Part shown: one piece after another, positions 14,201 to 40,052 of the stretch | How positions within the stretch are numbered: the first letter of the stretch is position 1 | How the letters are laid out: every line of letters begins with the position of its first letter | From: Trypanosoma brucei | Lineage: Eukaryota | Reading direction: 5' to 3' | DNA: 64,000 nucleotides | NCBI GenBank assembly: GCA_000002445.1 | Contig: CH464491.1 | Coordinates: forward strand, 576,001 to 640,000 | Position numbers and translations under genes: made by a program | The notes under the pieces: model-generated | Told to the model about the DNA's origin: nothing | Database searches by the model: none | The model's input: the letters and a program-made list of their open reading frames with translations, nothing else

Positions 14201-14568
14201 CGCTGCCCATAACAGCTTCTGCATGGCCGGTGTTGGCTGGAAGGAGGAAGCGGTGGTTTCCGATGGTACCCACGTTTGCACCCCTTCCGGGAACCCTGGA
14301 CAACGCGAACAACAAGGTGGATCCGCCTCATTTGGTCCCTAACACCTCCCACATGGTTATGCGTGAGAAGGGTTATAGGGATGTGCTGCAGTCACAAGTT
14401 GTTTATTTTACTTCGCTAGCAAATAGCAAAGCCTGTGAGGACCCAACGTACCTCTCGGTCTCCCCATGTACAACTGCAAGGTCCCGTTCCTCTCGTCATG
14501 GTGGGTCCACAGCAGCTCACATTGGTGCGGTACTGCCAACGCCTGGCCGGCATGCATACAGCTCTTAG
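11227..14568 (+). CDS. hypothetical protein with two cyclic-nucleotide-binding-like domains and a long disordered C-terminal half
   Basis: 1113-aa ORF starting at ATG 11227. The first cNMP-like domain is YSCGQAIASSGNPEQNALYILVSGKCDAI...LQPGETFGGLFGGKAIFTDVYRAISTCVVYVITREKFEELF (nt ~12070-12330). The second is LLQGDVLFEQGDPPGDVFCLIEGYVLRE (nt ~12500-12800). The C-terminal ~500 aa are S/T/P/K/R-rich low complexity. Confidence 0.6.
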   Translation: MSDSMGEGQDLVPMTLPVPEVMHVSELDVTGPLQPGDDCAQKSLSGNLPDKCMSVSFAKSLSGVDLSILTRSAGNASHTSIRSGSRARGGNTESYELAAVMVRSYPLMTVEGTAFLNTTRPPSSLGGTEPSVSLRQDAGSPSGVATDDEPLGESCVNLAESGEHSRTSANVMAIATSLKRACMWQVIITNFLAHRAWMEAFRRNKLRSVLEVHLLPVILRRRGRMNLSGRFTRRVCVQKPELVSRDSTDLLQGTYLYDTVPILKTLRNVKFCEALTETVLKYRYSCGQAIASSGNPEQNALYILVSGKCDAITPASETGGKVRRRRLQPGETFGGLFGGKAIFTDVYRAISTCVVYVITREKFEELFSQYADSSMKETFLGALRDHEMVRLKRLHPLPQCIARVPIYRKSEQLAGQVNEYIKGFTPLVLLQGDVLFEQGDPPGDVFCLIEGYVLREQLGPDMKYESGTRQVLAPNEPNNNFALSTRFLLLGEEPHILPGPLRYRCTVASRAALFFKINSDSFVNMLLDDASLLIRLRQKYKEQLQQWMRIAPEALRQVPMLGEMPRQNLNTIIHAAEPRVLERYVAVCEPARVIREIYVLTKGDVRDPRQFDHVPTQPPSLPPTESESVEEEAAGKQRKEKVTKRVPSPRERNSKAQKTAQQPVSPLKEGRPRKGNRSVASLVCKYTDDNAVQWSFEENTELLKATIYPDERQEITPPLPLNPERNIICTIGGGWEGLLLEKWPTGWETTTTVELWAIPTLAIRTEFNTFPKAAQNSILRCIGEVQMRELDLPTPPKVKLPPMSIYTPIEKRLTKPGLNVDRAPLRSPRNVGGSGASHDRSTAGTTSKIGRQQADAANSQSSFTTRSSSFFSVDISTVKPPPSALTSNRDPKTMSPKPAAVDTKVPTVPKTRKQLAQVTAAESAPVEPRKSKAVPASLLLFQRFSKKVTEEPPKITPELRAMYAGEKPQKGIVRESPLIEADKRRSHSCLPTLPITASAWPVLAGRRKRWFPMVPTFAPLPGTLDNANNKVDPPHLVPNTSHMVMREKGYRDVLQSQVVYFTSLANSKACEDPTYLSVSPCTTARSRSSRHGGSTAAHIGAVLPTPGRHAYSS

Positions 14569-19623: not shown

Positions 19624-20892
19624 ATGATGGAATTAATCGGCTGCCCTGCGGTTGCGGTGTTGACCTGTTTCTACTGGGTGGCTTCCCATTTGGTCCTTCT
19701 TCTTCGCGTTGCTTTGCCGCGCTTCAGCGTAATCGTGCGCTACGGTGGTCGCTGTGTTACGTCCGAGAGTATTTGCAGTGGCTTTGCCTCTTGGATTCAG
19801 TCATCTCGGGATTATGCAAAGCGCACAGTCGGCATGTGGAAGTCTGAGAGACTATCGCGGGCCGTCTTTCACTGTACTGCCATTCTTGAGGGTTCGATCT
19901 TGTGTCGTATACGAGTTAGCAGAAAGCTTAGCTTCTGCGCTTTTTATGTTGCAGGTATTGTTTCCATCGTTTTGATACTCATTCTGATGGATGGCGGCCA
20001 TTGTTCTCCCATTGTGGAGGGGATGACAGTATATTCTGACGGCCTCAATCACTCAGCTGTCGCCTTCCTGGTTTCTTATGCCGGTCGACCGCTGCTTGCT
20101 TTTCTCATGCACTGCACCGTCCGATTATTGGAGTGCCTTTTTTTGCATCGCTTCAGGGGCGGGTCCGATGACTGTGTGACTGGCTTCGCCGCCGTTGCTG
20201 GATGCTCTTTCTACGTATTTGCCTCGTGTTCCAGCGGCATTATTCTCCCCTGTACAGAACGGTCGCCACTAGTGATTGGTGGGCAGAGGGTTGTTAATGG
20301 TATGACGGAGGCATCACCTTTTTTCCCTACGTTCGCGTTGGCCGTGGATGCCTTATTTGTTCTGCATATGGTTTTTCAAGTAACACAGGTGTACCATCAC
20401 TGGGTCCTGGCGGAGCTTCGGAGAAAACCTGTCGGCACAAGTGTCCTTAAGGGGGAGCACTGTTCCGTTGGCAGATGCAAGACCACACCGAAGGGCGTGA
20501 GCGAGGAAGGGAGAATCGGCGACGGTTCAGCGGTGCTGTACCATTTTCCTCGTATCGCACTCTTTAAATATGTGCAGGAGCCGCACTACGCGTGCGAAGT
20601 CGCGATGTATGCCGTCAATGCAATCAGTATCTGCCTCATAGTTTACAATAGGTCATTGCCCTCCGGTGGCACTGGAAGGGAAATAGGGGATGAGTTTTCC
20701 GTAGGCAGTGAGGTGGTGCCGTTGTTGTGCGCGACGTGCTTACCGCCGCTAGGCGTGTTGTTTTTCTCGTTGTTTAATCTCGCCATTACCGCGCGTGAGC
20801 ACCGCCGGTTTTGGGAGTGTGTGAATGCTAGGCGAGGCGACGGGGAGCGGGAGCTAATCCCCAAATGGGATTTGTTCTATGGCGTGTGGTAA
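19624..20892 (+). CDS. 3-oxo-5-alpha-steroid 4-dehydrogenase family membrane protein (polyprenol reductase/TECR-like)
   Basis: 422-aa polytopic ORF starting at ATG 19624. The C-terminal region LFKYVQEPHYACEVAMYAVNAISICLIV...EHRRFWECVNARRGDGERELIPKWDLFY matches the SRD5A-family signatures G-x-F-x-x-v-x-xPNYfGE and HRWYlxxFxxYPxxRkALIPFIF. Confidence 0.5.
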   Translation: MMELIGCPAVAVLTCFYWVASHLVLLLRVALPRFSVIVRYGGRCVTSESICSGFASWIQSSRDYAKRTVGMWKSERLSRAVFHCTAILEGSILCRIRVSRKLSFCAFYVAGIVSIVLILILMDGGHCSPIVEGMTVYSDGLNHSAVAFLVSYAGRPLLAFLMHCTVRLLECLFLHRFRGGSDDCVTGFAAVAGCSFYVFASCSSGIILPCTERSPLVIGGQRVVNGMTEASPFFPTFALAVDALFVLHMVFQVTQVYHHWVLAELRRKPVGTSVLKGEHCSVGRCKTTPKGVSEEGRIGDGSAVLYHFPRIALFKYVQEPHYACEVAMYAVNAISICLIVYNRSLPSGGTGREIGDEFSVGSEVVPLLCATCLPPLGVLFFSLFNLAITAREHRRFWECVNARRGDGERELIPKWDLFYGVW

Positions 20893-21316: not shown

Positions 21317-23245
21317 ATGCCGTCTGCTAGTTCCGGCTACACCTTTGCGGACTTCTTGCGGCGGTTGGAGCGCAGTCCCGACTCCCACATGGCGCCCCTA
21401 TACCACGAGCATCGTGAGCTCTTTGTGCGGCGCCATGATATGTTTGCGCGGGTTATTAGCAGTGTCACATGGTCAAAAGGTGTCGCACTGGTTGCTGCCG
21501 CGGGGTACACACAAGCCGTCAACGTGACGATCTATAGGGCGCTGCTGGCACGTATGTTGTTACATAACCGGCACGTACGGCAGTGCGGCGCTGGCTCCGT
21601 TGTTCCGTGGTCGGCTGCGCTGCGCACTTACAGTGAGGCCATTGCCACGCACGGAAATGCTGTGCCAACCCGGATGACGCTATCGGCGCTGCGGCTCTGC
21701 ACGCCAGCACGTCAATGGGTTGCCGCCATATCGTTGTTAATGTTGAGTCAAGCGAACGACAAATTGACGCTCCCGATGTTAATTGATGCAGCGGGGTGCT
21801 GCGCCACACCAGCTGCGTGGGAAAAAGCGATGACATTACTCGGAAGATTTCACGCGCAGTCACTTCAGGTTCTTCCGGACTCTATACAAAGTCTTAGACC
21901 TGTTGGAACAAGCGCTTCAACCGTGGATGCGGCAGCCCACGCTCTGTTGCCCCGCAGCGAGGGTCCTACGCCGGAGCAGAAGCACATATTGACGGTTATC
22001 AACAAGGTCGTGTCAGCTGTGCCGTGGCAGGTGGCATTGTCAAATGAAATGTGCAGGTCTTATCTCACTCACCTTGTGGCAAGTACAACACTGCGACCAA
22101 CGGAGAAGACGGCTTCTCTCACAACTGCTGTGCAACAACTTCCGTGGGAAGCTTTTGTTACACTGATGAAGACAGTTACGGCGACTGTTCAGGAAGGGTC
22201 GCAGGGTGTCTTGGGATCTCGTTCGACTCCCCAACTCCCACCGCCTCAGGATGGAATGGAGCGAGGGGACGTTGCCAAATCCCTGTTGAGCAACAGCATT
22301 ATTAGGGAGGGTGTAAACCTGCTTCAGAGCGAACCAGAAACCGCTATTCCCTTCATCACAACTATTCTTCACAAGCTACCATCTGCAGAGGCTGCGGCAC
22401 TGTTCCTCAGTGAGGCAACCTCAGCCTACCGGAACAGTTCAAGCGCCGTTGTGGCCGCTGCCATTCGCCATCCTGTTGTTGTGGGAGCTTTGTTGAAAAG
22501 GTGCGCTGATAGTAACTCATGGTACCTCGCAGCATCAATATTTAAATCAACCTCACCGACAGCAATTCCTTGTGACGTGGCTAGCGACCTTGTAATCCAA
22601 ATGCGGAGGGCAAATCAGGCACCACTGGTGGTGGATGTTCTGCAAAAGTACATTGTGCCATCGAGGACCAAACTAACGGAAGAGGCGATTGAGGCAGCGC
22701 TATTGTGTGTGCTGGTGCACAATCGGGCACTCGCGAAAGCCTCAGCCGTCGTCGCCGGCACTTCCCCCGACAATCGCACTGGAAAACCTAACGGAATCGG
22801 TGTTGCCAATGGTGTGCATTGGATATCAGCACTTAGTTGGGCCACTGACCTTTTGGAGGAGGGTGTGGAGTCGAGAATACTTCAGACCGGAACAACCCCT
22901 TCGGTAGGTGGTGTAAATCATGAAGACCCCACAGTGTTACTGCGGAAAAAGACATTATCGCCACGCATCCTGAGCCTTCTCATTTACATATGCGTAAATG
23001 CTGGGAGTCCACGTGGGGGTCTGTTTGCGCTGGGATACGCACGCACCGTCAGCAAAACGGAGCTCGAACTCTCAGAAGAGATTACAGCACTGTTGTATTG
23101 CATGATGTACGACCGTCCTCGTGAAGCGGAGAGTATCATTCAACACGCTGTGAAGAAACACGGGGAGTACAAGGGGAAATACCTTGGTAGGTTACTGGTG
23201 GCTTCGCAAGAGGCAAAGGGGTCCGCGCTGAGGAATCAAACTTGA
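21317..23245 (+). CDS. hypothetical protein (alpha-helical repeat, possibly PPR/TPR-like)
   Basis: 642-aa ORF starting at ATG 21317. Its composition is helical and A/L-rich with repeated roughly 35-aa helical hairpin-like segments (YRALLARMLLHNRHVRQCG..., WSAALRTYSEAIATHGNAVPT...). No diagnostic catalytic motif was seen. Confidence 0.55.
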   Translation: MPSASSGYTFADFLRRLERSPDSHMAPLYHEHRELFVRRHDMFARVISSVTWSKGVALVAAAGYTQAVNVTIYRALLARMLLHNRHVRQCGAGSVVPWSAALRTYSEAIATHGNAVPTRMTLSALRLCTPARQWVAAISLLMLSQANDKLTLPMLIDAAGCCATPAAWEKAMTLLGRFHAQSLQVLPDSIQSLRPVGTSASTVDAAAHALLPRSEGPTPEQKHILTVINKVVSAVPWQVALSNEMCRSYLTHLVASTTLRPTEKTASLTTAVQQLPWEAFVTLMKTVTATVQEGSQGVLGSRSTPQLPPPQDGMERGDVAKSLLSNSIIREGVNLLQSEPETAIPFITTILHKLPSAEAAALFLSEATSAYRNSSSAVVAAAIRHPVVVGALLKRCADSNSWYLAASIFKSTSPTAIPCDVASDLVIQMRRANQAPLVVDVLQKYIVPSRTKLTEEAIEAALLCVLVHNRALAKASAVVAGTSPDNRTGKPNGIGVANGVHWISALSWATDLLEEGVESRILQTGTTPSVGGVNHEDPTVLLRKKTLSPRILSLLIYICVNAGSPRGGLFALGYARTVSKTELELSEEITALLYCMMYDRPREAESIIQHAVKKHGEYKGKYLGRLLVASQEAKGSALRNQT

Positions 23246-26696: not shown

Positions 26697-29600
26697 ATGG
26701 CTGGAACCCAGGCAGCAGTGGACTACACCAAAGTGTTGGTGAAGAATACAGTAAGGTTCATCCTCTTAGTTCTGTTTCTCATATCTCTCGTTGTCTCGTT
26801 ACTCCTATGCATGCTTGCTGACATCTTTCAAGCCTACGCCCCCGTCTTCCCATTGTGGCCAATGGTTTTTGCGAGCGTTGCGCTAAACGTTGCGTGTGCT
26901 GTTTCGACTTCGTTGTATCATCGAGTAACGTGCAAGGCTTCTCGTTCTTATAAGAGCTCCGGAAGCAACCATGCATATTTGGCAATGCAAGGTTTCGGGT
27001 ACGGTTTGCTTTTTATTTGTCCGGCGGTGCTGTTCTTATATATTGAACTTTTAGCTTCCCCTGTTGCCGTCTACCGCTACGGATTGATAACAGCACTGGG
27101 TGGTTCATGTGCCGTGGCAAATGGGCTATTGATCGCATCTTTGCGGTACTCCGAAAAGACTCAGCGGCGAGTGAAAGAAGGTGGACTTGGGGGAGGCGAG
27201 AGGCCACAGCGCGACTCCGGTCTGTGGAGGAGACGTTTGTTATTGCTTCCAGACGGCGAGACAGCCATTGTCGTTTTGCTTTGTATCATTGCTCTCACGT
27301 GTTCTATTATTGCGGAGTATTTTACGCACCTGCGCCGTGCGTTGACCATTGTGGGCATGTTGCTTCTCGTAGTTAGTGCGGCTATCACTCGTGTTGGCAC
27401 TGGGTATCGGTCTGCTACCGGCGAGCACCCCTTCTCGATCTCTAGGTGCAGCTTCAGAACGGGTATTGTTCAAGGGCTTGGTTGGTTTCTGGGTGGGGCA
27501 ACGTTGTGTTTCGATTTGGTTTTGTGTAATTCAGGTGCGGGCGCACCTCCGTCTTGGCATATCATCAGTGGGTTAAGTTCGATGGTGAGCGTTGCTGCAC
27601 TCCTGTTTGCAAGGTTTCACCGCTTCACAGAACCTACATTCAAACAAGGCTTGCAGTTGTCCAGTGATGGACCCTACGTAATGACAGCAACAAGTCTATT
27701 TCAACTTACTTTTGTGTGGTGTTTAACGTTACTACTATCTACGGAGTACTGCGAACTAGGTATGCAGTTGAGGCAGGGGCTGATTACGTGTCAAACCCTC
27801 ACAGCGGTATCCATGTTTGCCCTGCCTCTTTGCACTCACTTTCTTGGCCGTGTTGTGTTCGGCAAGGAGTACGGAATATGGATAAGTCTTGACTGCCGGT
27901 TAGAATTCGCAATCTTGCAGCGGTTGGCGTGGTTTTGCTACAGCATAGCCATTTTCTTCGCCGTACTTCACATGACGGAGTCCAACCACTTCAGGTTCGT
28001 TGTCATACAGGCCCTACTGGTCGGAGTTTCTCAATGCCTTGTACATGCGTCGCTTTGGGCATTCGGTGGGGGAACATTGGGGAGATATTCAAGCGATGTT
28101 GAAGATCAAGAGTCTTTATCACGTACTACTTCCACCAAATCCACTTCACAGGAGGAAGACTCAGAGGGGGAAGCCTCCGTATCTTATGAGGGCGGTCGCT
28201 CTGCTCTACCTCTAGTACTGAATGCAGAGATGGTCACCGCCATTGCGGTCTGCGTGTGCGGGATTGCTCTTCGGCTTGTTGCCGATGTGGAGTCCATGGA
28301 TGGCGCATTTGTCGGTGCTCTGTTGGGTGTTCCCCGGAAATCGCTTCTGAATCTTGCAAGGGTCATGGCCACTGTTGCGGTACCGCTTGCTCATATTTCA
28401 TCCAGGGACCGTGTTCCTTTGTGGCAGCCATTTGTTGGCTGTGGTGGTTATGTTTCTATGCAAGCGGTGGGGTGGTCCGTTTACGCGATCAATACGTTGA
28501 TTGAGGCCGCCAATTACTTTCATGAGGAACGCCGGAGTCTTGCGTCTCCGGTATTTGGAACTCAATCTATGCCATTGGAACACACAGTGGATGGTGTATG
28601 CGCTACCGTCCCGTTTATTTGCATATTCCTGGGCTCCTTATTTGAAACATGGGCCCAACAAAGCGAGAAAATTCATCAGCGGAAGATGCAACAGAAGATC
28701 GTGGAGCTTAACAGCTTACTACAGCATGTCATTGCCGATCCGGAGGATCGGGAGCGGACGAAGTCACTTTTGAAGGTTGTAATTGGCCCTCGGTGGAAAG
28801 ATTTGAGAAGTAGCGGAAGTTCCGACGAGGACGAACGCGCCGAGGAGGTGGAAACAAGAAAGGAGGGCATGAGAAATATCGTAGCCATTCTCTGCGTCTG
28901 TGTAATGATGTTGTTTGCGACTTCCGCGTTTTCAGCAACGCACCAACCCGCCTTTACACTTATATTCGGGATATCAGGTATGATGATGACGAGTGTATCG
29001 TGTTTTTCGCTGCAACTTTTTTACGGATCGATCGTGCACGGGGCCACCGGAACCTATTCGTACTTTATGCCATTTTCTGGTGGGCAAAAGTTTGTTGCAT
29101 TCCAGACTGCTGGGTGGTCTTGTTACGCGGCTGCACTATTGTTAATTCTAATAAGTTGTCTCGAAGGTCGCGGTTCGCCCACTGCCTTCGTTTGCATGGG
29201 TTTCTTTAGTGTCGCGGCACAGTTTTTGATTTTGAATTCTATTCCGCATTTTGATTCCACTCCGAGACCGGCTTCGTTGTTGGAACAAAATGCGGAAGCG
29301 GCGCTTGCCGTGTTTGCGCTCGTTGGTTCCTTTACTTTTGGTGTTGTATGGAACGCCTACACAGGCGGTGGCATTCCAGGGCAGGCGCCATCCCCGCTCC
29401 CCATTATTGTTACAGCTATTGCCGCATCGTGTGCTGCACCATTGGGAATCGTGTCTTTGAAGCGCCACATGGAGCGTTCCGCCATGTTCGCCGTCGCTGA
29501 TGGACTGGAAAGTTCCTCCGAGGCAAGTGACGGTGAAGAGGAAATACGCAGTGATGGCCACACGGATGCAATCGCCCATGTAAGTAATGGGAGTGGACAC

Positions 29601-31271
29601 CAGTTCCCCTCTTCATTGATGCAGGGCCAAGTAAACACCGGTGTCGACTCGGAGCGAGGGACAAATGATTCCTTCGACACCCAAGCATCCCGCTCCTTTC
29701 CAGGATCCACCGGATCGTTCGGGAGTGGCAAGCGGTGCCGCTCAGTGCAGCACATGGAGGTCATACCGGGCACATTGTACACGATTTGTCTCATTTTGGC
29801 GCTGCTTGCTACACTGATTTGGGTTATATTCGTCCCGATAGTTCTCTTCTATATGTTCTACTCGTACGCCTACAGTGGACTTGCCGTATTTCACATGACG
29901 TTTACGACATTTCACATTGTGTTGTTCCTGCTTTCCATTGCGGTTGTTACCCCGGTGCTCGTCCAAATAATTTACGACAGACGATGTAAGGGTCTTCGGG
30001 GGAAGTTCTGGAGCCCTCTAGTTGCTTTTACTGTGTACTCCCTACCAACAATTGTGGTTTCAACGGTGCTTGTTGTCTGGACTCAGGTGGACACAATGGG
30101 GGCCGAGGTTTTTGCCCTAAACATGGTATTCATGAGTTGCCTTTCGTTCCTTTCGTGTGCTTATCTGGTGGCGTCACTCTTTAACACATGTTTCCTCGGA
30201 TATGTGCTGCACTTTTATCTCTACACATGTTTGGTTCAGGGGTTGGCGCCTCTTGTCGTTTGGAAGTGCGTCACGGACGTCGGGTTTACAGTGTTTTGGT
30301 TGTGGTACTTACGAGGTTACGGTAAGCTCCCTCACATCACTGGATGCATGTGCGGTGCCAAATCGCGGGACTTGTTCCGTACCTATTTATCACCTGCCAT
30401 TGTCGATTACTTCAGTGCGCGTCTTATTGTTGATGGGAGGGGGAAGGCTGGAAGGGGTAAAACGGTTATATACAGTAATTCCGAGGGGGAGGAGGAAAAT
30501 GCTGGACCTGATCACAATGATCCGTCAAACAAATACATTTATTCCTTTCATCCGCATGGTGTTTTCCCCGGCACCGCACTCTGGTTGCCGATGTCACCGC
30601 AGTGGGAGGAACTGATCGGCCGCAACGAGGAGACCATTGTCACAACACACGGTGCAGATGTGATTTTTGCCGTCCCGTTCATGCGTGACGCGCTTATGTC
30701 AGTTGGCACCATGAGTGTATCGAGGAAAGGAATTGAGAACTGTCTTAAGCAAAACAACAGCCCTATTATTGTGACTGGTGGGATGGCGGAAATGGTGTAT
30801 CAGAAGGGTAGTGACACCGAAATGCACATCGTCATGCATCACAGCGGGTTTGTTCGAATGGCTCTGCAGCATGGGGTGCCTATTGTGCCTATCCTTTGTT
30901 TCGCCGAGCAAAATGTAATGATGAATGTTCCCTTTCCACGTCTACAGAGACTCACCTCGAGAAAGCTTGGCTTTCCATTTCCCACAATGCCGTATGGGAG
31001 ATGGTTTCTTCCCCTTCCACATGCACGGCCACTCACCGTAGTGGTGGGTAAACCAATTCTTCCAGATCCTGCGATGTGCAATGCTGATGACCCTGATCAT
31101 GTAGTACACTACAGACTCCGCTATTTTGGTGAATTGCAGCGGCTTTTCTTCAAGTATCGTGATGAAGCCGGATACCCCAACATGGTGCTTCATCTCCACT
31201 GCCACAACGAGACGCATATTGTGACAGAATTTAAAGGGTCGGAATCAGTTAAAGATGATCAAAACCAATGA
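26697..31271 (+). CDS. large polytopic membrane protein with a C-terminal DGAT2/MGAT-family acyltransferase domain
   Basis: The ORF-track start at 26646 is GTG and the first ATG is 26697 (MAGTQAAV). About 1150 aa of N-terminal multi-pass TM region precede the acyltransferase domain. The DGAT2 signature motifs are YIYSFHPHGVFPG (HPHG, nt ~30550), VTGGMAEMV and HSGFVRMALQHGVPIVPILCFAEQN (RxGFxxxAxxxGxxlVPxxxFGE). Confidence 0.75.
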   Translation: MAGTQAAVDYTKVLVKNTVRFILLVLFLISLVVSLLLCMLADIFQAYAPVFPLWPMVFASVALNVACAVSTSLYHRVTCKASRSYKSSGSNHAYLAMQGFGYGLLFICPAVLFLYIELLASPVAVYRYGLITALGGSCAVANGLLIASLRYSEKTQRRVKEGGLGGGERPQRDSGLWRRRLLLLPDGETAIVVLLCIIALTCSIIAEYFTHLRRALTIVGMLLLVVSAAITRVGTGYRSATGEHPFSISRCSFRTGIVQGLGWFLGGATLCFDLVLCNSGAGAPPSWHIISGLSSMVSVAALLFARFHRFTEPTFKQGLQLSSDGPYVMTATSLFQLTFVWCLTLLLSTEYCELGMQLRQGLITCQTLTAVSMFALPLCTHFLGRVVFGKEYGIWISLDCRLEFAILQRLAWFCYSIAIFFAVLHMTESNHFRFVVIQALLVGVSQCLVHASLWAFGGGTLGRYSSDVEDQESLSRTTSTKSTSQEEDSEGEASVSYEGGRSALPLVLNAEMVTAIAVCVCGIALRLVADVESMDGAFVGALLGVPRKSLLNLARVMATVAVPLAHISSRDRVPLWQPFVGCGGYVSMQAVGWSVYAINTLIEAANYFHEERRSLASPVFGTQSMPLEHTVDGVCATVPFICIFLGSLFETWAQQSEKIHQRKMQQKIVELNSLLQHVIADPEDRERTKSLLKVVIGPRWKDLRSSGSSDEDERAEEVETRKEGMRNIVAILCVCVMMLFATSAFSATHQPAFTLIFGISGMMMTSVSCFSLQLFYGSIVHGATGTYSYFMPFSGGQKFVAFQTAGWSCYAAALLLILISCLEGRGSPTAFVCMGFFSVAAQFLILNSIPHFDSTPRPASLLEQNAEAALAVFALVGSFTFGVVWNAYTGGGIPGQAPSPLPIIVTAIAASCAAPLGIVSLKRHMERSAMFAVADGLESSSEASDGEEEIRSDGHTDAIAHVSNGSGHQFPSSLMQGQVNTGVDSERGTNDSFDTQASRSFPGSTGSFGSGKRCRSVQHMEVIPGTLYTICLILALLATLIWVIFVPIVLFYMFYSYAYSGLAVFHMTFTTFHIVLFLLSIAVVTPVLVQIIYDRRCKGLRGKFWSPLVAFTVYSLPTIVVSTVLVVWTQVDTMGAEVFALNMVFMSCLSFLSCAYLVASLFNTCFLGYVLHFYLYTCLVQGLAPLVVWKCVTDVGFTVFWLWYLRGYGKLPHITGCMCGAKSRDLFRTYLSPAIVDYFSARLIVDGRGKAGRGKTVIYSNSEGEEENAGPDHNDPSNKYIYSFHPHGVFPGTALWLPMSPQWEELIGRNEETIVTTHGADVIFAVPFMRDALMSVGTMSVSRKGIENCLKQNNSPIIVTGGMAEMVYQKGSDTEMHIVMHHSGFVRMALQHGVPIVPILCFAEQNVMMNVPFPRLQRLTSRKLGFPFPTMPYGRWFLPLPHARPLTVVVGKPILPDPAMCNADDPDHVVHYRLRYFGELQRLFFKYRDEAGYPNMVLHLHCHNETHIVTEFKGSESVKDDQNQ

Positions 31272-32976: not shown

Positions 32977-34314
32977 ATGCAGCGGACGCTTCGCAGTGCG
33001 GCCCGTCGCAAATGGGGGCAAAAAACCTGGTCACCCACAGCTACAAACGGAGGTGCGGCACCGGCGAATGGTGTCAGCGCGCAAGAAGCACTTCAAATTG
33101 CATATCGCCCGATGCCACCCTCACAAACTGTGGAGTACGAAGAGGATTTCGGTCACAATCTAATGATTCACCGTGAGTATATTTCCAAGCGCTGTCGCGA
33201 CCGCGTGTCGTTTGAGCTGAGTGCGCTTTCCTACAGTAATTTGGAACTGCGACGTGGACAAGAGCATCTGGCGGGAATTATGAATAGGGAGCGGAGAGGG
33301 GTTTCAGTGGGTGCCTCTGGCGCTCCAGATGATCAGGTGCAGATGCAAACCGATGTGGATGCCAACTCGAGGGAAGTCTTGAGCGCACGGTACCTCTTCA
33401 ACGAGAGGCGGTTGCAGTTCTGCGATCGATTTCAGAACTTCTTTCAAAGCAAACTGGAAAATAGTGCTGCGAGTGATTCCAATGGACACGAGAAGCAACA
33501 TCTCTTCTCTCTTATGGAGGCATGCGCGGTGATATTTGGTTGCGAAACGGAGGCGGCTCGGGAAACATACTACCGCATGTTCCTGGGGTTGGATTCGGAA
33601 ACGCTTTTGGAGGAAGACGAGGCACTACGCAACCGAATCGCCGATGCCAAACTCGTGCAGCGGGTTCTCGAGAACAACAAGGGGCGGCAAGAGGTCACAC
33701 AATCGCCTAAACTTCAACAACAACAGGATCAAGGCAAACCCCTGCACGCCGTTTCTAGTGGTACAAGTTTGCTTAATGATTGCGAAGAAGAGCGCTTCAT
33801 TTCATCTATTCCCGAGCTTTCCCTGTTTGAAGACGAAACTGAGGCTAGAGCCAACGGGTTCGTCGAAGGTGAAGACGATGTCAAGGCAAACAATGGTGAT
33901 CTCACTGCCGGTAGTTTTAGCTCCCCTGCTTCCTCTGTTAATTTACCGGAGGAGTTTGAAGAATATGCCCCTCTATACAAGGCATACATTACCCACGCAG
34001 TGGGAAAAGGACCCGTGGCTTCGTATGATATATCGACACTTGGTTCAACAGGTTTGACAGCAGAGCGGCGACGATGGAGGACTCTGATGGAGAAGATTGT
34101 ACGGGAGGATTATCATACCATGACGGAAGTAGAACAGATGGATGCCATCGTGTTGAATGAGCAACTCCACACCGTAAAGTTCTTCGATTTGAAGATTGGA
34201 GATGCGATTCGTGATATATTGCAGTTGTTGCAACGGGAAACCGGCGTCGGTTCGTCGGTCAATCGCGACACACCGGTGGGTATTTCTCCCAACAACCCAG
34301 AGCGACGAGTCTGA
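32977..34314 (+). CDS. hypothetical protein
   Basis: 445-aa ORF starting at ATG 32977 in the sense orientation. It has protein-like composition with a Q/E-rich central segment and no recognisable family. An overlapping frame-2 ORF at 32921-33163 is probably spurious. Confidence 0.5.
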   Translation: MQRTLRSAARRKWGQKTWSPTATNGGAAPANGVSAQEALQIAYRPMPPSQTVEYEEDFGHNLMIHREYISKRCRDRVSFELSALSYSNLELRRGQEHLAGIMNRERRGVSVGASGAPDDQVQMQTDVDANSREVLSARYLFNERRLQFCDRFQNFFQSKLENSAASDSNGHEKQHLFSLMEACAVIFGCETEAARETYYRMFLGLDSETLLEEDEALRNRIADAKLVQRVLENNKGRQEVTQSPKLQQQQDQGKPLHAVSSGTSLLNDCEEERFISSIPELSLFEDETEARANGFVEGEDDVKANNGDLTAGSFSSPASSVNLPEEFEEYAPLYKAYITHAVGKGPVASYDISTLGSTGLTAERRRWRTLMEKIVREDYHTMTEVEQMDAIVLNEQLHTVKFFDLKIGDAIRDILQLLQRETGVGSSVNRDTPVGISPNNPERRV

Positions 34315-34496
34315 AATGTGTGTGATTTTTGTTTGGAAAGCATGTTGACGATTAACTTCACATTTTAAGTAAGCACGGTTTGTTGTACAAGCCCGCTTGC
34401 TCACGTTTTGTCGTTGTATGATCTTACGATTAATAGTCTACTTGCTGAAAGTGGTGTCTGTTCCCTTCCCTCCTTAATGTGTATGTGGCTAAATCG

Positions 34497-34516
34497 TATA
34501 TATATATATATATATT
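34497..34516. repeat. (TA)n microsatellite
   Basis: tatatatatatatatatata lies inside the longest ORF of the carnitine acyltransferase gene but upstream of the homology-supported ATG. Confidence 0.9.
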
Positions 34517-34569
34517 CGTCCTTTGTTTCCTTGCTCTGTTTTCTGGCGTATTTTGAAGAATATAAGACA

Positions 34570-36783
34570 ATGGCAACATCAGAAAGTTCAGGTGCTAAGA
34601 GATTTTGGGGCGTCGATTCGGAGTATGAGGTGACACTATGCTCTACAGACAGCCCCGTTCGGGCGTATGAGTCGCACATGTTTGACAAGGAAGTGCTGAG
34701 CGCAGATGGAGCTGCACACACGGCAAAAAAACCCAAAGCTGGTGATTCGCTCGGATATGATAAGCACCAGGCATCCCTCCCGCGCTTACCCATTCCAACA
34801 CTGCAGGATACGTGCGACTTGTATTTGAAGTCTATTCAGGCTCTCGTAACGGCTGAGGAGTACGTTCACACCAAGAAAGTTGTGGAAGATTTCCTGAAGG
34901 GAGGTGGAAGCGGGGAAACACTACACAATTTGCTCCTTAAATGGGACAAGGAGTGTAACCAACCGAGTTGGTTGGAGGAGTTTTGGAATGACTCTTACGT
35001 TTGTATGCGCGATCCCATCCCAGTCAACGTTAACTTTTTCTTCCAATTTAAACCTCATCCACAACACTTGCAGAATGGCCGTCATGTCTCGCAAATTGGC
35101 CGCGCCGCCAGCCTTCTGCATGCGGCAGTTGAATACTATGTATCGATTATAAATGGGACCGTGGCCAGAGAATTCGAGCGGGACGCTCCAGTATGCATGA
35201 GTCAGTACCGCTTTGTTTTCAGTACCTCGCGTGTTCCTGGATTACATCAGGACCGGAAAGTTTGTTACTCCGAAAGACCGCTCACAGAGGACGAGAAAAG
35301 GTCAAAATTTGCTGAGTACGTCGCTGCCAGCCCCACTCACTGCGTTGTAATAATCCGTGACCGCTTTTTCAAGTTAGAGGTACTTCGAGAAGATGGTACC
35401 CAATACAGCGTCGAGGAACTTATAGTGTCACTCAAGTATATCGAAGATTTCGTCACCTCAAGGCAGAACCCCGGAGCACCGGTGGGTCTTTTGACAACAA
35501 TGGACCGCACGGAGTGGTTCCACGCTCGTGAACGCCTTAAGAAACTGGGTAACGTAGGCATACTTCAAACTATCCAATCGGCCCTCATTTGTATCTGCCT
35601 CGATGGCGTCCGTGTTGTTTCACCGGAGGTGGGCGCCCGGTTGCTGCTGCATGGACAAGGGACGAACCGATGGTTTGACAGGCACAACATCATTGTTACA
35701 GCTGATGGGACTGCGGGTGTGAATTGGGAGCACTCTGTTAATGACGGCGGAACGGCATTGATGCTGGCCGACTTCATGTACAAGAAAGACTGCGAGCGCT
35801 TCTTTACAGGAGATGAGGTTGAAGCCCTTTCTAAGCGGGAAGGCGTGTCCCTTACTGTGCGGAGGATGGTCGCCGAGAAGCAGTGGAATCTTGACAAGGG
35901 AATATATGGCGTCATGAAGTCTGCGTCAGAGGATTTTAAAACATTAATTCAAAATAATGAGTTACATGTGCTACATTTTGGAAACTTTGGTGGGGCCTTT
36001 CTGAAGCGCTTTGGGATCTCACCGGATGCCTTTTTTCAGATGGCCCTTCAGTTGACATACTACCGGCTCTTTGGCCGTAACTGTGCGACCTACGAAGCGG
36101 CTACCACACGTACCTTCAGCCACGGCCGTACAGAGTGCATACGAAGTGCCAGTTCTGAAGCTCTGGACTTCTGCCGAGCGGCGTGCGAGCCATTGTTTCC
36201 CAAGCGTATCGGCTCTGCAGTACCTTCTCAGGGCGAATTCCTCCGCAAGGCAGTCGCCGCTCATGCAAATGCTGTAAAACTTGCCAAGAGTGGCCTCGGT
36301 GTAGATAGACATTTATATGGTTTGCGGGTAATGGCGCGAATGCACGGTGTTCCGCTTCCCGGACTATTTAATGATCCGTCTTACCACCGGAGTGGAACGT
36401 GGCTCATGTCGACTTCCCATTGTGGAAGCAATGCACTCGATGCCTTTGGGTTCGGCCCTGTTGTTGTTTCGGGGTTTGGGATCGGCTATATGATCAAAGC
36501 CGACAGCATAGATGTTGTCATTACTTCAAAGTGTACTTCTCATTTTACTTCTACGGTGGTGTTTGCTTCCATGCTGGAATCCTCGTTGTTTCACATGAAG
36601 ACTATACTTCAGAGTGAAGATATGAGCCGGCGAGCTGAGAGAGATATTTTACTTTTCTCTCATCCATGTGGACTGAACGACTTTCAGTTCTCTGAGAAGG
36701 AGGGCTTCATCTACGAGCACCATGTGAATGGCAGCAAAGGTGAGATGACTGATTCCATTGCTGATGCCTCACCAAATTTGTAA
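34570..36783 (+). CDS. carnitine O-acyltransferase (choline/carnitine acyltransferase family)
   Basis: It carries the N-terminal family motif LPRLPIPTLQDTCDLYL (nt ~34777) and the catalytic-His motif VNWEHSVNDGGTA (nt ~35727). The longest ORF (TTG 34408, first ATG 34477) would read through a (TA)9 microsatellite at 34497-34516. I therefore place the start at ATG 34570 (MATSESSGAKRFWG). Confidence 0.8.
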   Translation: MATSESSGAKRFWGVDSEYEVTLCSTDSPVRAYESHMFDKEVLSADGAAHTAKKPKAGDSLGYDKHQASLPRLPIPTLQDTCDLYLKSIQALVTAEEYVHTKKVVEDFLKGGGSGETLHNLLLKWDKECNQPSWLEEFWNDSYVCMRDPIPVNVNFFFQFKPHPQHLQNGRHVSQIGRAASLLHAAVEYYVSIINGTVAREFERDAPVCMSQYRFVFSTSRVPGLHQDRKVCYSERPLTEDEKRSKFAEYVAASPTHCVVIIRDRFFKLEVLREDGTQYSVEELIVSLKYIEDFVTSRQNPGAPVGLLTTMDRTEWFHARERLKKLGNVGILQTIQSALICICLDGVRVVSPEVGARLLLHGQGTNRWFDRHNIIVTADGTAGVNWEHSVNDGGTALMLADFMYKKDCERFFTGDEVEALSKREGVSLTVRRMVAEKQWNLDKGIYGVMKSASEDFKTLIQNNELHVLHFGNFGGAFLKRFGISPDAFFQMALQLTYYRLFGRNCATYEAATTRTFSHGRTECIRSASSEALDFCRAACEPLFPKRIGSAVPSQGEFLRKAVAAHANAVKLAKSGLGVDRHLYGLRVMARMHGVPLPGLFNDPSYHRSGTWLMSTSHCGSNALDAFGFGPVVVSGFGIGYMIKADSIDVVITSKCTSHFTSTVVFASMLESSLFHMKTILQSEDMSRRAERDILLFSHPCGLNDFQFSEKEGFIYEHHVNGSKGEMTDSIADASPNL

Positions 36784-39581
36784 CAAACTGATGGTATCGA
36801 CTTCTGAACAGCGATGGACCTCCACGGGATGGCTCGGTAGCTTTTGTGCCCTTTACTCTTTAAATTTTTAATTATCTATCTATCTCTCTGCCTGTTTCCC
36901 TTTTTTTTTCTTTTACAGTTTTTCCTCCCTCATTATAATTATAATTTCACTTTTCCCCACACGTCGAGGGGCATACGACGTCACGATGGGTTGCCCCACA
37001 AGGCAGTCGAACGGCACTGTTTTCTTTTTTGCTTCCATGTGCATGCATTGCTCAGCTGTGCGGTAATATCATGCGTAGCGGGACATGTCTTTTTCATCAT
37101 CTTGAAAACACGGCCAAAATGTCCCTGTTATTTTCGTCTTTCCTTTCTTAAAAGAAAAAAAAGAAGGTGAAGGAAATTTTATTTCATGTTGTATATAAAT
37201 GTTTATTTGTTTATCCTTTCATCCCCCCTTTACCTTTGCAACGTTCGGATAGAAGGGTAGTCAAATTCCGCGTGTACGGATTTCTCATCACTTCTCCTTC
37301 TTATTACATTACTTGTGTTGTTTTTGCTCCTTTCTTTTCGTTAATTTGCGTGGGCAATTGCGAGGTGAACAACTAATAGATGAGCAAAAGGTAAAATAAA
37401 ATTAAAAAGAAAAATCACAGGCGAGTGGAGAAGTCGGGGTAGGAGGGGAAGCAAAGAGAAGGACGAGAAAACGATTTTATGCCACGTTTGAAACAAGCGC
37501 ACGTACGAAAAACGCAAACACGGAATAATACGGGAATATCACTTTTTTTTTTTCCTTCCATTACCCGCGGGCGTGGCAACTGGCTGTTTTTTTTTTTCCT
37601 TCCCATATGGGGGAGGATTTGTTATGCATTTTGATGTGGGATTCTTAACACTACTTTTCATCCTTGTGCTTTCTTCATGCATAATTGACACGGCGTTATA
37701 ACATATATGTATCTGTGTGTATTTGTCAATATTTCTTTCTTTCTCTTTTTTTTTTTCTCTCTTTATCGTCAAAGTTGTTTATTGCGTCAAGGCGAAAAAG
37801 TAAATCAAACAAACGAAAAAAAAAAAGAAACAAACACAAAAGGTTGTTTGTTGTTGTTGTTTTTTGAGAAAAAGAAAAATGTTCCCCGGCATGCAGCAAC
37901 CGAAGGCACTCCCCATGGGTGAGGCACATACGCAGTTTTGGACTAACTTCAATCGCTTCTTAACTACCAGTGCACTTTCCATCACCGTCTCACTTTTTAT
38001 TCGCTACTGCGAGGGACGCACCAGCGCTGTATTACTTAACGGCATTTAATATTCGAAATATAACACATAAAATAAAGCGGTCACATGTTTTTGGTGGTTT
38101 TGGAGTACACCGGAGGGAGGGATGTGGTGGAAGTGAAGGGATTTTCTTTTTTTTTTTCAAAAAAAATAAAGAAAAAGAAATAAAAAAGGTTTTTGAGAGC
38201 AAAAACAACTGAACAGAGAAGGGAGGATGAAATGAGCGGATTGTTAGCGAAGGGGAGGGGGGGAATGTAAAGGAAAAGTGAGCTCGACAAATGGTGGAAT
38301 TATTAGGTTGAGAAGTGTGTGCATGTAAGGTTGGGGTAAAGAGAAGAAAAAAAAAAAGAAAAAAAATAACAATAGTAATAATAAATAAATAAACAAAAGG
38401 ACACCAAATAGTAAAGAGGTTGAGAGGGTGCAAACTTGTCGAAGCACGTGAGAAGGGGCTCACCATATCATTGGTGGATGACTTTATCCCACTTTGTAGT
38501 ATTCGTGCTGAAAACTCACAGTATATTTCGTGGACTTAAAGTTTCCAATTGTACGAGTGAGTCTCCCCAACTCTAATCTGTCAACCGTTTCTTTTTTGTT
38601 TCTTTTTTTATTTTTTATTCTTCGTTTTTGTTTTTTTTTTATTTACGTTTGCTGCGTGCACATTTTGTTTTATGAATGTGTGTGTGTGTGGGGGGGGGGG
38701 AGGAGGAGGGGTCTGTGCAACAACTCAAATAACCAGTTCCACATCCAGAGCTGTTGATAAAGAAATATTAACGGCAGCCGCTTACTCTTCTGAGTTCGTG
38801 CTTTCTCCTTGCTTTATAATTTTGTACCAAACTTTTGTGGACACGAAGTGGAATAAAATAATAAAACAAGGAAAAGAAAGGAAAAACACAAGAGGGACGA
38901 TGTTTCGGATGTTTTTGTTTTCATCATTTTTATTCCTCCGGTGTTGTTGACCATTTTCTTTATGCAATTTTCCGCCTTATTCCGCTTTGTTCCTCCATTC
39001 TGCTGCCCCGTAATATCGATTTCTTTTTTTGTTTTGTTTTGTTTTTTTGTCTCTGCTTTTTTCCCTCTATTTACCTACTTTTCATTTTGTGTCGTTTTTC
39101 CTTTTCTTTCTTTCTTTATATTTCTTTATATTTATTTCCTTTTCTTTCATTTGATTATTATTGTTATTTTTTTTTTTTACCGTTGCAACGCTCGCAATGT
39201 TTGTGATTCCCCAACTATGCACAGAGGCGTTACGGTTTTGGACTATTTTAGCGAGTGAGTTGAATAAGCGTAACGGAACAACAGTGGAACGATAGGAATG
39301 GTAAGACCGAATACAACATAACACAACTTACCATAACGTAACGTGACAGAAAAGAAAAAGAAAGAAGTGCAACGGAAATTAAAAGGAAAAAGCGGAAGTG
39401 AACTTAAAGCAGCATAAGTCAAATTTGAGTGGACATATATATTATTTGAAGTACAGAAGAGTCAAAGAAAGGAGAGGGAGAAGGTTATCACACCAAAGCC
39501 GAGCGCATAACAACAACAGGAGCAAAACTATTACTATCAGGGTGAATAGACTGATTTTGAAGGGAGAAAATATTGCGGTTT

Positions 39582-40052
39582 ATGGTGAGCGAAGTGATGG
39601 TTGAGTTGCATGACTTTGTGCATGGTGGCGGCTTGCAGGACAGTTCATATGTTCCTTTGAACTCGCCGTTGAGGTTGCGGTTTCAGTACAGCGTGAGTCA
39701 CACCGTGGAGAAACCAAAGTGGGCTCTTACATTTGTCGCTGATATCGCTGATAAGCGCCGTGTTGTGGAGTTACTGCCCCCAATGAATGTAAAAAATGAG
39801 CTGATGCACGAGCCTTATAAAACATATGATGGCGTGCCACCGCTTTCACCAGGGGAGCGATACGTGGCGGAGTTTCAAATTGAAACCATGAATTTGACTG
39901 GTGTGGAGAGGAAATATCTCGAGCATGTCGGCGCGTTGCAGTTGGTGCTTATGTCAGACACGAAACGTGTGTCGGAGCTAACAGTTGTTGTTCAGGTGAA
40001 ACGGAATGATTCCGGTGAGTTGATGCGACGAGTTCTAAGCCCTATGGTGTAA
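39582..40052 (+). CDS. hypothetical protein
   Basis: The ORF-track start at 39573 is TTG and the first ATG is 39582. It encodes a 156-aa protein of balanced composition (MVSEVMVELHDFVHGGG...). I recognise no family. Confidence 0.4.
   Translation: MVSEVMVELHDFVHGGGLQDSSYVPLNSPLRLRFQYSVSHTVEKPKWALTFVADIADKRRVVELLPPMNVKNELMHEPYKTYDGVPPLSPGERYVAEFQIETMNLTGVERKYLEHVGALQLVLMSDTKRVSELTVVVQVKRNDSGELMRRVLSPMV

What the first reader, a model, noticed from the sequence alone, without database searches (positions are those of the whole stretch)
26697..31271. DGAT2/MGAT-type acyltransferase domain fused to a roughly 1150-aa multi-pass membrane region: an unusual giant architecture
The last roughly 290 aa carry the canonical DGAT2-family motifs HPHG (FHPHGVFPG, nt ~30550), GGxAE (VTGGMAEMV) and RxGFxxxAxxxGxxLVPxxxFGE (HSGFVRMALQHGVPIVPILCFAEQN). 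Typical DGAT2/MGAT enzymes are 300-450 aa. Here the domain sits at the end of a 1524-aa protein. The N-terminal part is predicted to span the membrane more than 20 times, with acidic low-complexity loops (STSQEEDSEGEAS; SSSEASDGEEEIRSDG). Possible roles are a transporter or flippase-like module coupled to neutral-lipid or wax-ester synthesis, or a lipid-droplet biogenesis scaffold.
Basis: partly seen in the sequence, partly recalled or inferred. Interest (0 to 1): 0.6.

Follow-up and report, generated by a model that had tools for sequence, protein, structure and literature searches.

The report
Giant membrane-repeat DGAT2 acyltransferase of trypanosomes
This is the annotated Trypanosoma brucei "putative diacylglycerol acyltransferase" gene, and its huge membrane-spanning front part is five copies of a four-helix repeat that no Pfam model covers and that other protists attach to fat-making, fat-splitting or ubiquitin-ligase domains.

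Summary
Window 26697-31271 (+) is one 1524-codon ORF. It is identical to T. brucei TREU927 XP_828305.1, annotated "diacylglycerol acyltransferase, putative". Residues 1276-1493 match Pfam DAGAT (E 3.6e-25). The AF2 model of aa 1010-1524 (pLDDT 86.8) has the PlsC/GPAT/tafazzin acyltransferase fold.

What the annotation does not show is the nature of the N-terminus. It is not a transporter-like domain. It is five diverged copies of a roughly 140-aa four-helix membrane unit with the motif [FW]xPFxGGxxFVxLQxxGWxxY. Two further helices follow inside repeat 5, then a disordered acidic linker, then 4-6 more helices that lead into the catalytic core. That gives about 26-28 membrane helices.

No Pfam model and no solved structure matches the unit. 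A scan of 1.84 billion representative proteins found 97 proteins carrying it. 51 have the same repeat-plus-DGAT2 fusion; the named ones are trypanosomatids, a diplonemid, a euglenid and a choanoflagellate. Others end in an Abhydrolase_3 hydrolase or carry F-box or RING/PHD domains (choanoflagellate, oomycetes).

My best reading is a bilayer-locked, probably ER, DGAT2-family neutral-lipid synthase with a regulatory repeat array. Whether the acceptor is diacylglycerol or sterol is unresolved. Thraustochytrid DGAT2-like enzymes with many N-terminal membrane helices are sterol acyltransferases, but I could not test whether they share this repeat. Internal trans-splicing was not tested directly.

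The parts
26697..31271 (+). Complete ORF of 1524 aa plus stop. It is T. brucei TREU927 XP_828305.1, annotated 'diacylglycerol acyltransferase, putative'.
26766..27170 (+). Membrane repeat 1 (aa 24-158). Four helices with a degenerate motif, HAYLAMQGFGY.
   Evidence: Repeat HMM iE 6e-22. Leave-out HMM iE 4e-19. AF2 helices 2-47, 53-78, 92-119 and 130-151.
27252..27743 (+). Membrane repeat 2 (aa 186-349). Motif remnant HPFSISRCSFRTGIVQGLGW.
   Evidence: HMM iE 1e-20. Leave-out iE 9e-16.
27783..28070 (+). Membrane repeat 3 (aa 363-458; its first helix probably lies upstream at about aa 328-346). Motif remnant FAILQRLAW.
   Evidence: HMM iE 1e-15. Leave-out iE 4e-13. AF2 helices.
28086..28199 (+). 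Disordered acidic, Ser-rich inter-repeat loop (aa 464-501, contains STSQEEDSEGEAS).
   Evidence: pLDDT below 50. Motif position.
28218..28682 (+). Membrane repeat 4 (aa 508-662). Canonical motif WQPFVGCGGYVSMQAVGW.
   Evidence: HMM iE 1e-21. Leave-out iE 5e-19 and strict motif match at aa 576.
28683..28850 (+). Hydrophilic helical linker between repeats 4 and 5 (aa 663-718).
   Evidence: AF2 helices 638-678 and 682-704. Sequence.
28851..29474 (+). Membrane repeat 5 (aa 719-926), a long six-helix form. Canonical motif FMPFSGGQKFVAFQTAGW. This is the best-conserved unit of the family.
   Evidence: HMM iE 6e-54. Leave-out iE 5e-48. It is the best-matching stretch in most database hits.
29508..29768 (+). 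Long disordered acidic, Ser-rich linker (aa 938-1024, contains SSSEASDGEEEIRSDG).
   Evidence: pLDDT below 50. Motif position.
29769..30293 (+). Last membrane block (aa 1025-1199, 4-6 helices). It is not a detectable sixth repeat. From about aa 1100 it packs with the catalytic domain.
30408..30425 (+). YFSARL. I read this as the counterpart of the DGAT2 'YFP' motif; that correspondence rests on my memory of the family motif and was not tested here.
   Evidence: Position. YF is conserved in the alignment consensus.
30522..31175 (+). DGAT2 catalytic domain as delimited by Pfam PF03982 (aa 1276-1493).
30549..30560 (+). HPHG catalytic motif (aa 1285-1288).
   Evidence: P, second H and G invariant and first H nearly invariant in 47 fused homologues.
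30777..30791 (+). GGMAE motif (aa 1361-1365).
   Evidence: G352, G353 and E356 of the alignment are invariant.
30840..30914 (+). HSGFVRMALQHGVPIVPILCFAEQN (aa 1382-1406), the family's RxGFxxxA...VP...FGE block in variant form.

Best explanation
This is a single polytopic membrane enzyme of the DGAT2 family.

Shown:
- The C-terminal roughly 425 aa form a PlsC/GPAT-fold acyltransferase core with the HPHG catalytic motif.
- This core is preceded by about 22 membrane helices organised as five diverged copies of a four-helix unit. The last copy is extended by two helices.
- The repeats are joined by disordered acidic, Ser-rich loops.
- The unit is an ancient, mobile membrane module found in several protist lineages.

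Inferred:
- The core transfers an acyl chain from acyl-CoA to the hydroxyl of a neutral-lipid acceptor at the cytosolic face. The acceptor would be diacylglycerol giving triacylglycerol, and/or a sterol giving steryl ester.
- Every repeat has an even number of helices. The linkers, the conserved PFxGG loops and the catalytic domain should therefore all face the cytosol.
- A protein with this many bilayer-spanning helices cannot move onto the lipid-droplet monolayer as hairpin-type DGAT2 does. The enzyme should therefore stay in the ER (or another bilayer) and feed neutral lipid into it.
- The repeat array is most likely a regulatory, anchoring or turnover-control module rather than part of the active site. 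This is by analogy with the dispensable, abundance-lowering TM1-8 of thraustochytrid DGAT2C. It also fits the same repeat being fused elsewhere to lipases and to ubiquitin-ligase domains.
For: - One ORF, identical to the annotated T. brucei protein.
- Pfam DAGAT E 3.6e-25.
- AF2 model of aa 1010-1524: pLDDT 86.8, pTM 0.83.
- HPHG, GGxxE and HxGF residues invariant or nearly invariant in 47 fused homologues.
- Five repeats detected by an iterated HMM. They are still found at iE 4e-13 to 5e-48 when the units of T. brucei, T. grayi and T. vivax are left out. There are no hits on reversed sequences.
- AF2 model of aa 1-1200 gives helices at pLDDT 70-90 and disordered linkers.
- 97 proteins carry the unit and 51 have the DGAT2 C-terminus.
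- Named examples span trypanosomatids, a diplonemid, a euglenid and a choanoflagellate.
- Other fusions: Abhydrolase_3 in 7 members, F-box-like in 2, RING+PHD in 1.
- In Aurantiochytrium, multi-TM DGAT2C stays in the ER while DGAT2D, read as a hairpin protein, goes to lipid droplets. Deleting TM1-8 keeps activity and ER localisation and raises protein level (PMC10686087).
Against: - No experimental data on this protein were found in the searchable literature.
- The acceptor substrate cannot be read from the sequence.
- The N-terminal AF2 model is only moderate (pLDDT 69.7, pTM 0.57). I had no access to its coordinates, so the packing of the repeats is unknown.
- The topology is inferred from helix parity, not measured. 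My crude hydropathy count misses some weakly hydrophobic helices.
- Homology between this repeat and the thraustochytrid N-termini is not shown. Primer-derived DGAT2C peptides matched none of the 97 hits apart from chance short matches, so the regulatory analogy may not transfer.
- T. brucei departs from the family consensus in the last motif, FAE in place of FGE.
Confidence: 0.6

Rival explanations
1. [quoted passage not shown] On this reading it is the unidentified 'ACAT-like' activity of trypanosomatids, and triacylglycerol is made by another route such as PDAT.
For: - Thraustochytrid DGAT2-like proteins with many N-terminal membrane helices (DGAT2C/AlASATb, AlASATa) make steryl esters, not TAG (PMC10686087, PMC8821962).
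- T. cruzi esterifies cholesterol with an activity that is sensitive to avasimibe but insensitive to Sandoz 58-035. The authors suggest the enzyme differs structurally from ACAT, and no ACAT-related enzyme had been identified or characterised (PMC4466137).
- Leishmania has an annotated PDAT that could supply TAG (PMC9769760).
- Two of the hydrolase-fused repeat proteins also hit the steryl acetyl hydrolase family Say1_Mug180.
Against: - Homology of the N-termini to the thraustochytrid enzymes is untested.
- In DGAT2C it is TM9-12, not the distal helices, that the authors link to sterol use.
- Pfam and the database annotation only support the family, not an acceptor.
- I could not survey the T. 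brucei genome for other DGAT or ACAT genes.
Confidence: 0.3
2. The N-terminal region is a transporter or flippase-like module that delivers substrate to, or removes product from, the acyltransferase.
For: - It has many membrane helices with conserved polar residues in or near the predicted helices: D after helix 1, H after helix 2, Q and W in helix 3.
- It is fused repeatedly to lipid-metabolising domains.
Against: - There is no Pfam transporter family at E <= 1.
- The copy number varies from 1 to 6 among homologues. The same module is also fused to F-box and RING domains. Neither is expected of a fixed translocation pathway.
- The distal eight helices of the analogous thraustochytrid enzyme are dispensable for product formation.
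Confidence: 0.07
3. The long ORF is not the main product. An internal trans-splice site yields a short, conventional DGAT2 mRNA, and the N-terminal part is a separate or rarely made protein.
For: - A weak 15-nt pyrimidine tract lies at 30140-30154, with the next AG at 30238.
- In-frame Met codons lie at aa 1134, 1143, 1146 and 1218.
- Alternative trans-splicing is known in T. brucei (my own knowledge).
Against: - Tract density in this ORF is 2 in 4.6 kb, about the coding average of 0.32/kb. Inter-ORF DNA has 3.6/kb and its tracts are longer, with a median of 19 nt.
- No tract lies at 30300-30450.
- A product starting at Met1218 would lack all membrane helices and part of the confidently folded core.
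- The fusion is kept in 51 representative clusters. These include the single TRINITY-assembled ORFs of Entosiphon and Namystynia.
Confidence: 0.05
4. The array of four-helix units works like the blade of Piezo channels. It would be a membrane curvature or tension element that places the enzyme at sites of lipid-droplet budding.
For: The only support is the formal resemblance of tandem four-helix membrane units.
Against: - There is no sequence similarity to any solved structure.
- The units are separated by long disordered loops.
Confidence: 0.04

Closest known systems
Canonical DGAT2/MGAT family (Pfam PF03982; for example mammalian DGAT2 and yeast Dga1)
   Same: - The catalytic domain matches the family model well above threshold.
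- HPHG, GGxxE and the xxGFxxxA...VP...F(G/A)E block are present.
- The predicted fold is PlsC/GPAT-like.
   Different: - Canonical members are about 300-450 aa with one hydrophobic hairpin and can move onto lipid droplets (my own knowledge).
- This protein has about 1,000-1,100 extra residues with about 22 helices in five repeats, plus 4-6 further helices next to the core.
- Motif variants are HSGF for RxGF and FAE for FGE.
Thraustochytrid DGAT2-like sterol acyltransferases (Aurantiochytrium DGAT2C = AlASATb, AlASATa, T66ASATa/b)
   Same: - A DGAT2 core with HPHG lies at the C-terminus of a long protein whose N-terminal part has many predicted membrane helices.
- The arithmetic of DGAT2C fits two repeats plus a four-helix block: 8 dispensable helices in about 415 aa, then 4 more, then HPHG at 642.
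- The same layout is seen in two-repeat hits such as P0085.
   Different: - They have 12 helices against about 26-28 here.
- The authors state that the region is not conserved outside thraustochytrids.
- Their substrate (sterol) and localisation (ER) are experimentally shown. Nothing is shown for the T. brucei protein.
Repeat-module proteins with other effector domains (Salpingoeca urceolata P0060 with Abhydrolase_3; Aphanomyces and Thraustotheca P0051/P0079 with F-box-like; Lagenidium P0081 with RING+PHD)
   Same: They carry the same four-helix repeat with the WQPFxGGxxFVxLQxxGW motif in arrays of 5-6 copies.
   Different: - The attached domain is a hydrolase or a ubiquitin-ligase element instead of an acyltransferase.
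- All are uncharacterised.
PlsC/GPAT/tafazzin acyltransferases (solved structures)
   Different: - Sequence identity is only 8-12%.
- Those enzymes use an HX4D motif and other acceptors (my own knowledge).
- phmmer found no DGAT2-related chain in the PDB sequence set.

Membership tests
DGAT2/MGAT family (PF03982) | Match to the family profile above the curated threshold | tested here: met
   88.9 bits against a cut-off of 22, E 3.6e-25, aa 1276-1493 covering profile positions 61-288 of 297
DGAT2/MGAT family (PF03982) | HPHG catalytic motif | tested here: met
   aa 1285-1288. P, second H and G invariant and first H nearly invariant in 47 fused homologues.
DGAT2/MGAT family (PF03982) | RxGFx(K/R)xAxxxGxx(L/V)VPxxxFG(E/Q) block and YFP motif | tested here: inconclusive
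   Present in variant form: HSGFVRMALQHGVPIVPILCFAEQN and YFSARL. HxGF is the rule in the fused subfamily. The textbook motifs are recalled from memory.
DGAT2/MGAT family (PF03982) | PlsC/GPAT-type acyltransferase fold | tested here: met
DGAT2/MGAT family (PF03982) | Acyl-CoA-dependent acylation of diacylglycerol | not testable with these tools
   Needs an enzyme assay. No published assay was found.
Thraustochytrid-type multi-TM DGAT2-like sterol acyltransferases (DGAT2C/ASAT) | DGAT2 core preceded by many N-terminal membrane helices | tested here: met
Thraustochytrid-type multi-TM DGAT2-like sterol acyltransferases (DGAT2C/ASAT) | N-terminal region homologous to that of DGAT2C/ASATs | not testable with these tools
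   The sequences (MF926506.1, Aurli1_43553, Aurli1_137698) are not held. Peptides deduced from published primers gave only chance short matches among the 97 hits. A primer 27-mer was absent from JGI metagenomes.
Thraustochytrid-type multi-TM DGAT2-like sterol acyltransferases (DGAT2C/ASAT) | Sterol as acyl acceptor; ER localisation | not testable with these tools
   Experimental properties
Four-helix membrane repeat family defined here (no Pfam model) | Two or more units matching the repeat profile, with the [FW]xPFxGGxxFVxLQxxGW motif at the start of helix 3 | tested here: met
   Five units at iE 1e-15 to 6e-54. They survive the leave-out control and there are no reversed-sequence hits. Strict motif at aa 576 and 790.
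Membrane transporters or flippases (any family) | Sequence or fold similarity to a known transporter family | tested here: not met

The most novel reading that the evidence does not exclude
The giant DGAT2-like protein is the long-sought sterol-esterifying enzyme of trypanosomatids. Its five-fold four-helix repeat is a new kind of membrane-embedded lipid or sterol-sensing module that sets the enzyme's abundance or activity. The same module would have been recruited in other protists to control ester hydrolases and membrane-bound ubiquitin ligases.
Probability: 0.2. Interest if true: 0.75.

Novelty: new variant of a known kind. Interest (0 to 1): 0.5.

Why it matters
- Trypanosomatids store triacylglycerol and host-derived cholesteryl esters, but the enzymes that make them are uncharacterised. 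An ACAT-type gene has not been identified (PMC4466137). This gene is a named candidate for one or both steps.
- Its architecture differs strongly from human DGAT2 and ACAT. That matters for selectivity if it is ever considered a drug target.
- The N-terminus defines a conserved membrane repeat that no Pfam model covers. It is shared by Euglenozoa, choanoflagellates and oomycetes, and is combined with acyltransferase, hydrolase and ubiquitin-ligase domains. That pattern suggests a general membrane-resident regulatory or sensing module, and it gives clear deletion and domain-swap experiments.
- The analysis may also show that the 'thraustochytrid-specific' N-terminal region of biotechnologically used sterol acyltransferases belongs to a wider family.

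Tried and rejected
- Word-indexed homologue searches with the full protein and with aa 1-1200 returned only the T. brucei cluster, probably because hydrophobic words swamped the candidate list.
- The third word-indexed search, with the 138-position unit profile, gave nothing at the database-wide E-value and was wasted.
- Self-BLAST did not reveal the repeats. They only appeared with a family HMM.
- I tested whether aa 1025-1200 is a sixth degenerate repeat. It is not detectable, with iE 0.27 or worse.
- The unit profile against all PDB sequences gave no hit at E <= 10.
- The catalytic region against the PDB by sequence gave only a chance hit to adenylate kinase 4.
- The AFDB Foldseek library was not available, so I have no organism list from structural neighbours.
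- I tried to identify Aurantiochytrium DGAT2C among the hits with peptides translated from the published primers, and with a primer scan of JGI metagenomes. There were no informative matches.
- Contig look-ups for the two-repeat hits gave only unnamed metagenome contigs or no record.
- Literature searches for a characterised trypanosomatid DGAT or for the TriTrypDB gene identifier found nothing usable. Published splice-site tables could therefore not be queried.
- No DNA-level tandem repeat underlies the protein repeats.
- The Piezo-like and transporter readings were considered and set aside for lack of any fold match.

Full report
**What is there**

The window reads like a trypanosomatid polycistronic unit. 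Apart from the frames inside a tandem repeat, every ORF of 200 aa or more lies on the + strand. The ORF from ATG 26697 to the stop at 31271 encodes 1524 aa. An open frame of that length has a chance probability of about 2e-32.

An exact-sequence look-up places the protein in a cluster with T. brucei brucei TREU927 XP_828305.1/EAN79193.1 (UniProt Q386T8), T. b. gambiense XP_011779388.1 and T. equiperdum XP_067083364.1. All are named "diacylglycerol acyltransferase, putative" and all are 1524 aa. The window translation is identical to the TREU927 entry. The gene and its family assignment are therefore already in the databases. I found no paper in the searchable library that characterises it or comments on its architecture.

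**The catalytic part**

- Pfam PF03982 (DAGAT) matches aa 1276-1493 at E 3.6e-25, 88.9 bits against a cut-off of 22.
- In an alignment with 46 fused homologues, P, the second H and G of HPHG, the GG..E residues and the G of HxGF are invariant. The first H of HPHG and the H and F of HxGF are nearly invariant. The H in place of the textbook R is a subfamily trait. FAE in place of FGE is particular to T. brucei.
- An AF2 model of aa 1010-1524 built on that alignment is confident (pLDDT 86.8, pTM 0.83). Its pLDDT is above 84 from about aa 1100 onward, so the last membrane helices pack with the catalytic domain.
- phmmer against the PDB sequence set found no DGAT2-related chain.

**The N-terminal part**

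Hydropathy gives more than 20 hydrophobic segments. A regular-expression scan showed five sites of the form Q..[GA][WY] in similar contexts, but self-BLAST found no repeats.

The word-indexed homologue search failed twice. An exhaustive HMMER scan of 1.84 billion representatives with aa 1-1200 returned 97 proteins at E <= 1e-3, of which 26 were at E <= 1e-30. Many had four to six separately matching stretches.

An HMM seeded on aa 715-930 and iterated over these proteins converges on 385 units in 97 proteins. It marks five units in the query: aa 24-158, 186-349, 363-458, 508-662 and 719-926.

Controls hold:
- Reversed sequences give no hit.
- An HMM rebuilt without the units of T. brucei, T. 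grayi and T. vivax still finds all five, at iE 4e-19, 9e-16, 4e-13, 5e-19 and 5e-48.
- A strict motif pattern occurs 244 times in the 97 proteins and never in their reversals.

The unit is about 135-150 aa with four helices. Its signature, [FW]xPFxGGxxFVxLQxxGWxxY, runs from the helix 2-3 loop into helix 3. A conserved D follows helix 1, an H..G follows helix 2, and S...F closes helix 4. The last unit of an array is a longer form of about 210 aa with two extra helices.

An AF2 model of aa 1-1200 has pLDDT 69.7 and pTM 0.57. It shows the helices at pLDDT 70-90.

Counting by homology and model gives 5 x 4 helices, plus 2 in repeat 5, plus 4-6 in aa 1025-1199. The total is about 26-28. The block at aa 1025-1199 is not a detectable sixth unit. 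No DNA tandem repeat underlies the protein repeats, so they are old.

**What the repeat is not**

- No Pfam family matches it, either in the query at E <= 1 or in 41 other carriers.
- The unit profile finds nothing in PDB sequences at E <= 10.
- Foldseek has no match at E <= 0.001.
- No transporter, flippase or Piezo chain stands out.

**Distribution and fusions**

Of the 97 proteins, 51 carry a DGAT2-like C-terminus with HPHG. Most have four to six units, and five is the commonest number.

Named examples of the repeat-plus-DGAT2 fusion:
- T. grayi, T. vivax and Leptomonas pyrrhocoris, all annotated as putative DGAT.
- The diplonemid Namystynia karyoxenos.
- The euglenid Entosiphon sulcatum.
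- The choanoflagellate Salpingoeca infusionum, with two units.

The Entosiphon and Namystynia entries are products of single TRINITY-assembled ORFs. The fusion therefore predates the split of Euglenozoa.

Other carriers lack DGAT2:
- Seven of 41 scanned end in an Abhydrolase_3 domain. Two of these also hit the steryl acetyl hydrolase family Say1_Mug180. Salpingoeca urceolata is one example of the hydrolase fusion.
- Two oomycete proteins (Aphanomyces, Thraustotheca) carry an F-box-like domain.
- One (Lagenidium) has RING and PHD fingers at its N-terminal end.

**One gene or two?**

I could not query RNA data. The indirect evidence favours one product.
- Pyrimidine tracts of 14 nt or more occur at 0.32 per kb in the large ORFs of the window and at 3.6 per kb outside them.
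- This ORF has two short tracts, at 30140-30154 and 31005-18. Neither lies in 30300-30450.
- A product starting at the next Met after the first tract (aa 1218) would lack all membrane helices and part of the folded core.
- The fusion is conserved across phyla.

**How it most likely works**

Shown: a DGAT2-type catalytic core with intact catalytic motifs, joined in one polypeptide to an array of four-helix membrane units.

Inferred from helix parity and the known cytosolic orientation of DGAT2 (my own knowledge): the N-terminus, linkers, PFxGG loops and active site face the cytosol.

Inferred from established lipid-droplet biology (my own knowledge): proteins with bilayer-spanning helices and lumenal loops cannot enter the droplet monolayer, whereas hairpin proteins can. 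The enzyme should therefore be confined to the ER or another bilayer. The Aurantiochytrium pair illustrates this. DGAT2D, read by the authors as a hairpin protein, is on droplets, and 12-TM DGAT2C stays in the ER (PMC10686087).

The role of the repeats is the weakest step. In DGAT2C the first eight helices are dispensable for activity and ER localisation, and their removal raises protein level. Here the same unit is combined with F-box and RING domains elsewhere. Both observations point to a regulatory, turnover or sensing module rather than a catalytic one.

Whether DGAT2C actually contains this unit is untested. Its published arithmetic fits two units plus a four-helix block: about 415 aa for TM1-8, then four more helices, then HPHG at 642.

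**Which acceptor?**

The family name suggests diacylglycerol. The only characterised multi-TM DGAT2-like enzymes make steryl esters (PMC10686087; PMC8821962).

Trypanosomatids esterify cholesterol with an activity that is avasimibe-sensitive and Sandoz 58-035-insensitive. The authors suggest the enzyme differs structurally from ACAT, and no ACAT-related enzyme had been identified or characterised (PMC4466137). Leishmania also has an annotated PDAT that could make TAG. I treat sterol acylation as a serious rival or an additional activity, at about 0.3.

**Verdict**

The gene itself is already annotated. The result beyond the annotation is that the "multi-pass region" is a five-fold repeat of a conserved membrane unit that no Pfam model covers, with a wide protist distribution and several fusion partners. 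I rate it a new variant of a known kind. Interest is moderate, because function remains inferred and a related architecture has been studied in thraustochytrids.

Noticed in passing
window 56362-58754 (inside ORF 55156-59475, +): There is a near-perfect tandem array of 51-bp units, 46.9 copies at 98% identity, which encodes 17-aa repeats. It explains why 800-960-aa ORFs appear in several frames on both strands there, and the local GC rise to 0.559 with a positive AT skew.
   Followed up: partly
window 34408-36783 (+): Two ORFs downstream of the DGAT2 gene lies a choline/carnitine O-acyltransferase (Pfam PF00755, E 2e-174). It is another acyl-CoA-using enzyme. The proximity is probably coincidental in a polycistronic unit, and I did not examine it.
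   Followed up: no
window 11227-14568 (+); 51715-54321 (+); 60031-61389 (+); 6430-8796 (+); 48239-50725 (+): Neighbouring genes by Pfam are a 1113-aa protein with a cyclic-nucleotide-binding domain, a BRO1/ALIX protein, eRF1, a CBF/Mak21 protein and a WD40 protein. ORFs at 15796-17283, 19624-20892, 21317-23245 and 32977-34314 have no Pfam match.
   Followed up: no
window 38001-40000 and 46001-48000: These stretches have low GC (0.393 and 0.384) and contain no ORF of 200 aa or more. GC skew is positive in 29 of the 32 2-kb bins of the window, which fits one transcription direction.
   Followed up: no
related proteins P0053, P0060, P0092 (Abhydrolase_3); P0051, P0079 (F-box-like); P0081 (RING+PHD): The same four-helix membrane repeat occurs without DGAT2 in choanoflagellate and oomycete proteins. 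There it is joined to hydrolase or ubiquitin-ligase-type domains. About 30 further carriers have no Pfam domain at all; they may be module-only proteins or fragments.
   Followed up: partly
related proteins P0031, P0035, P0040, P0045 (730-1010 aa): These shorter DGAT2-fused proteins have only the last, six-helix-type unit plus the pre-catalytic helix block, and long low-complexity inserts. They could be paralogues with reduced arrays or incomplete gene models. Their organisms are unknown.
   Followed up: no
window 26697-31271 compared with cluster members P0001 and P0003: The Logan-derived representative P0001 and the T. b. gambiense protein P0003 share 7 substitutions relative to the window (TREU927) protein. 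P0003 has one more, K1513R. Six of the eight lie in loops or linkers (aa 90, 484, 501, 694, 975, 997), one lies in the last membrane block (aa 1154) and one lies in the C-terminal tail. None is in the Pfam-delimited catalytic domain.
   Followed up: no
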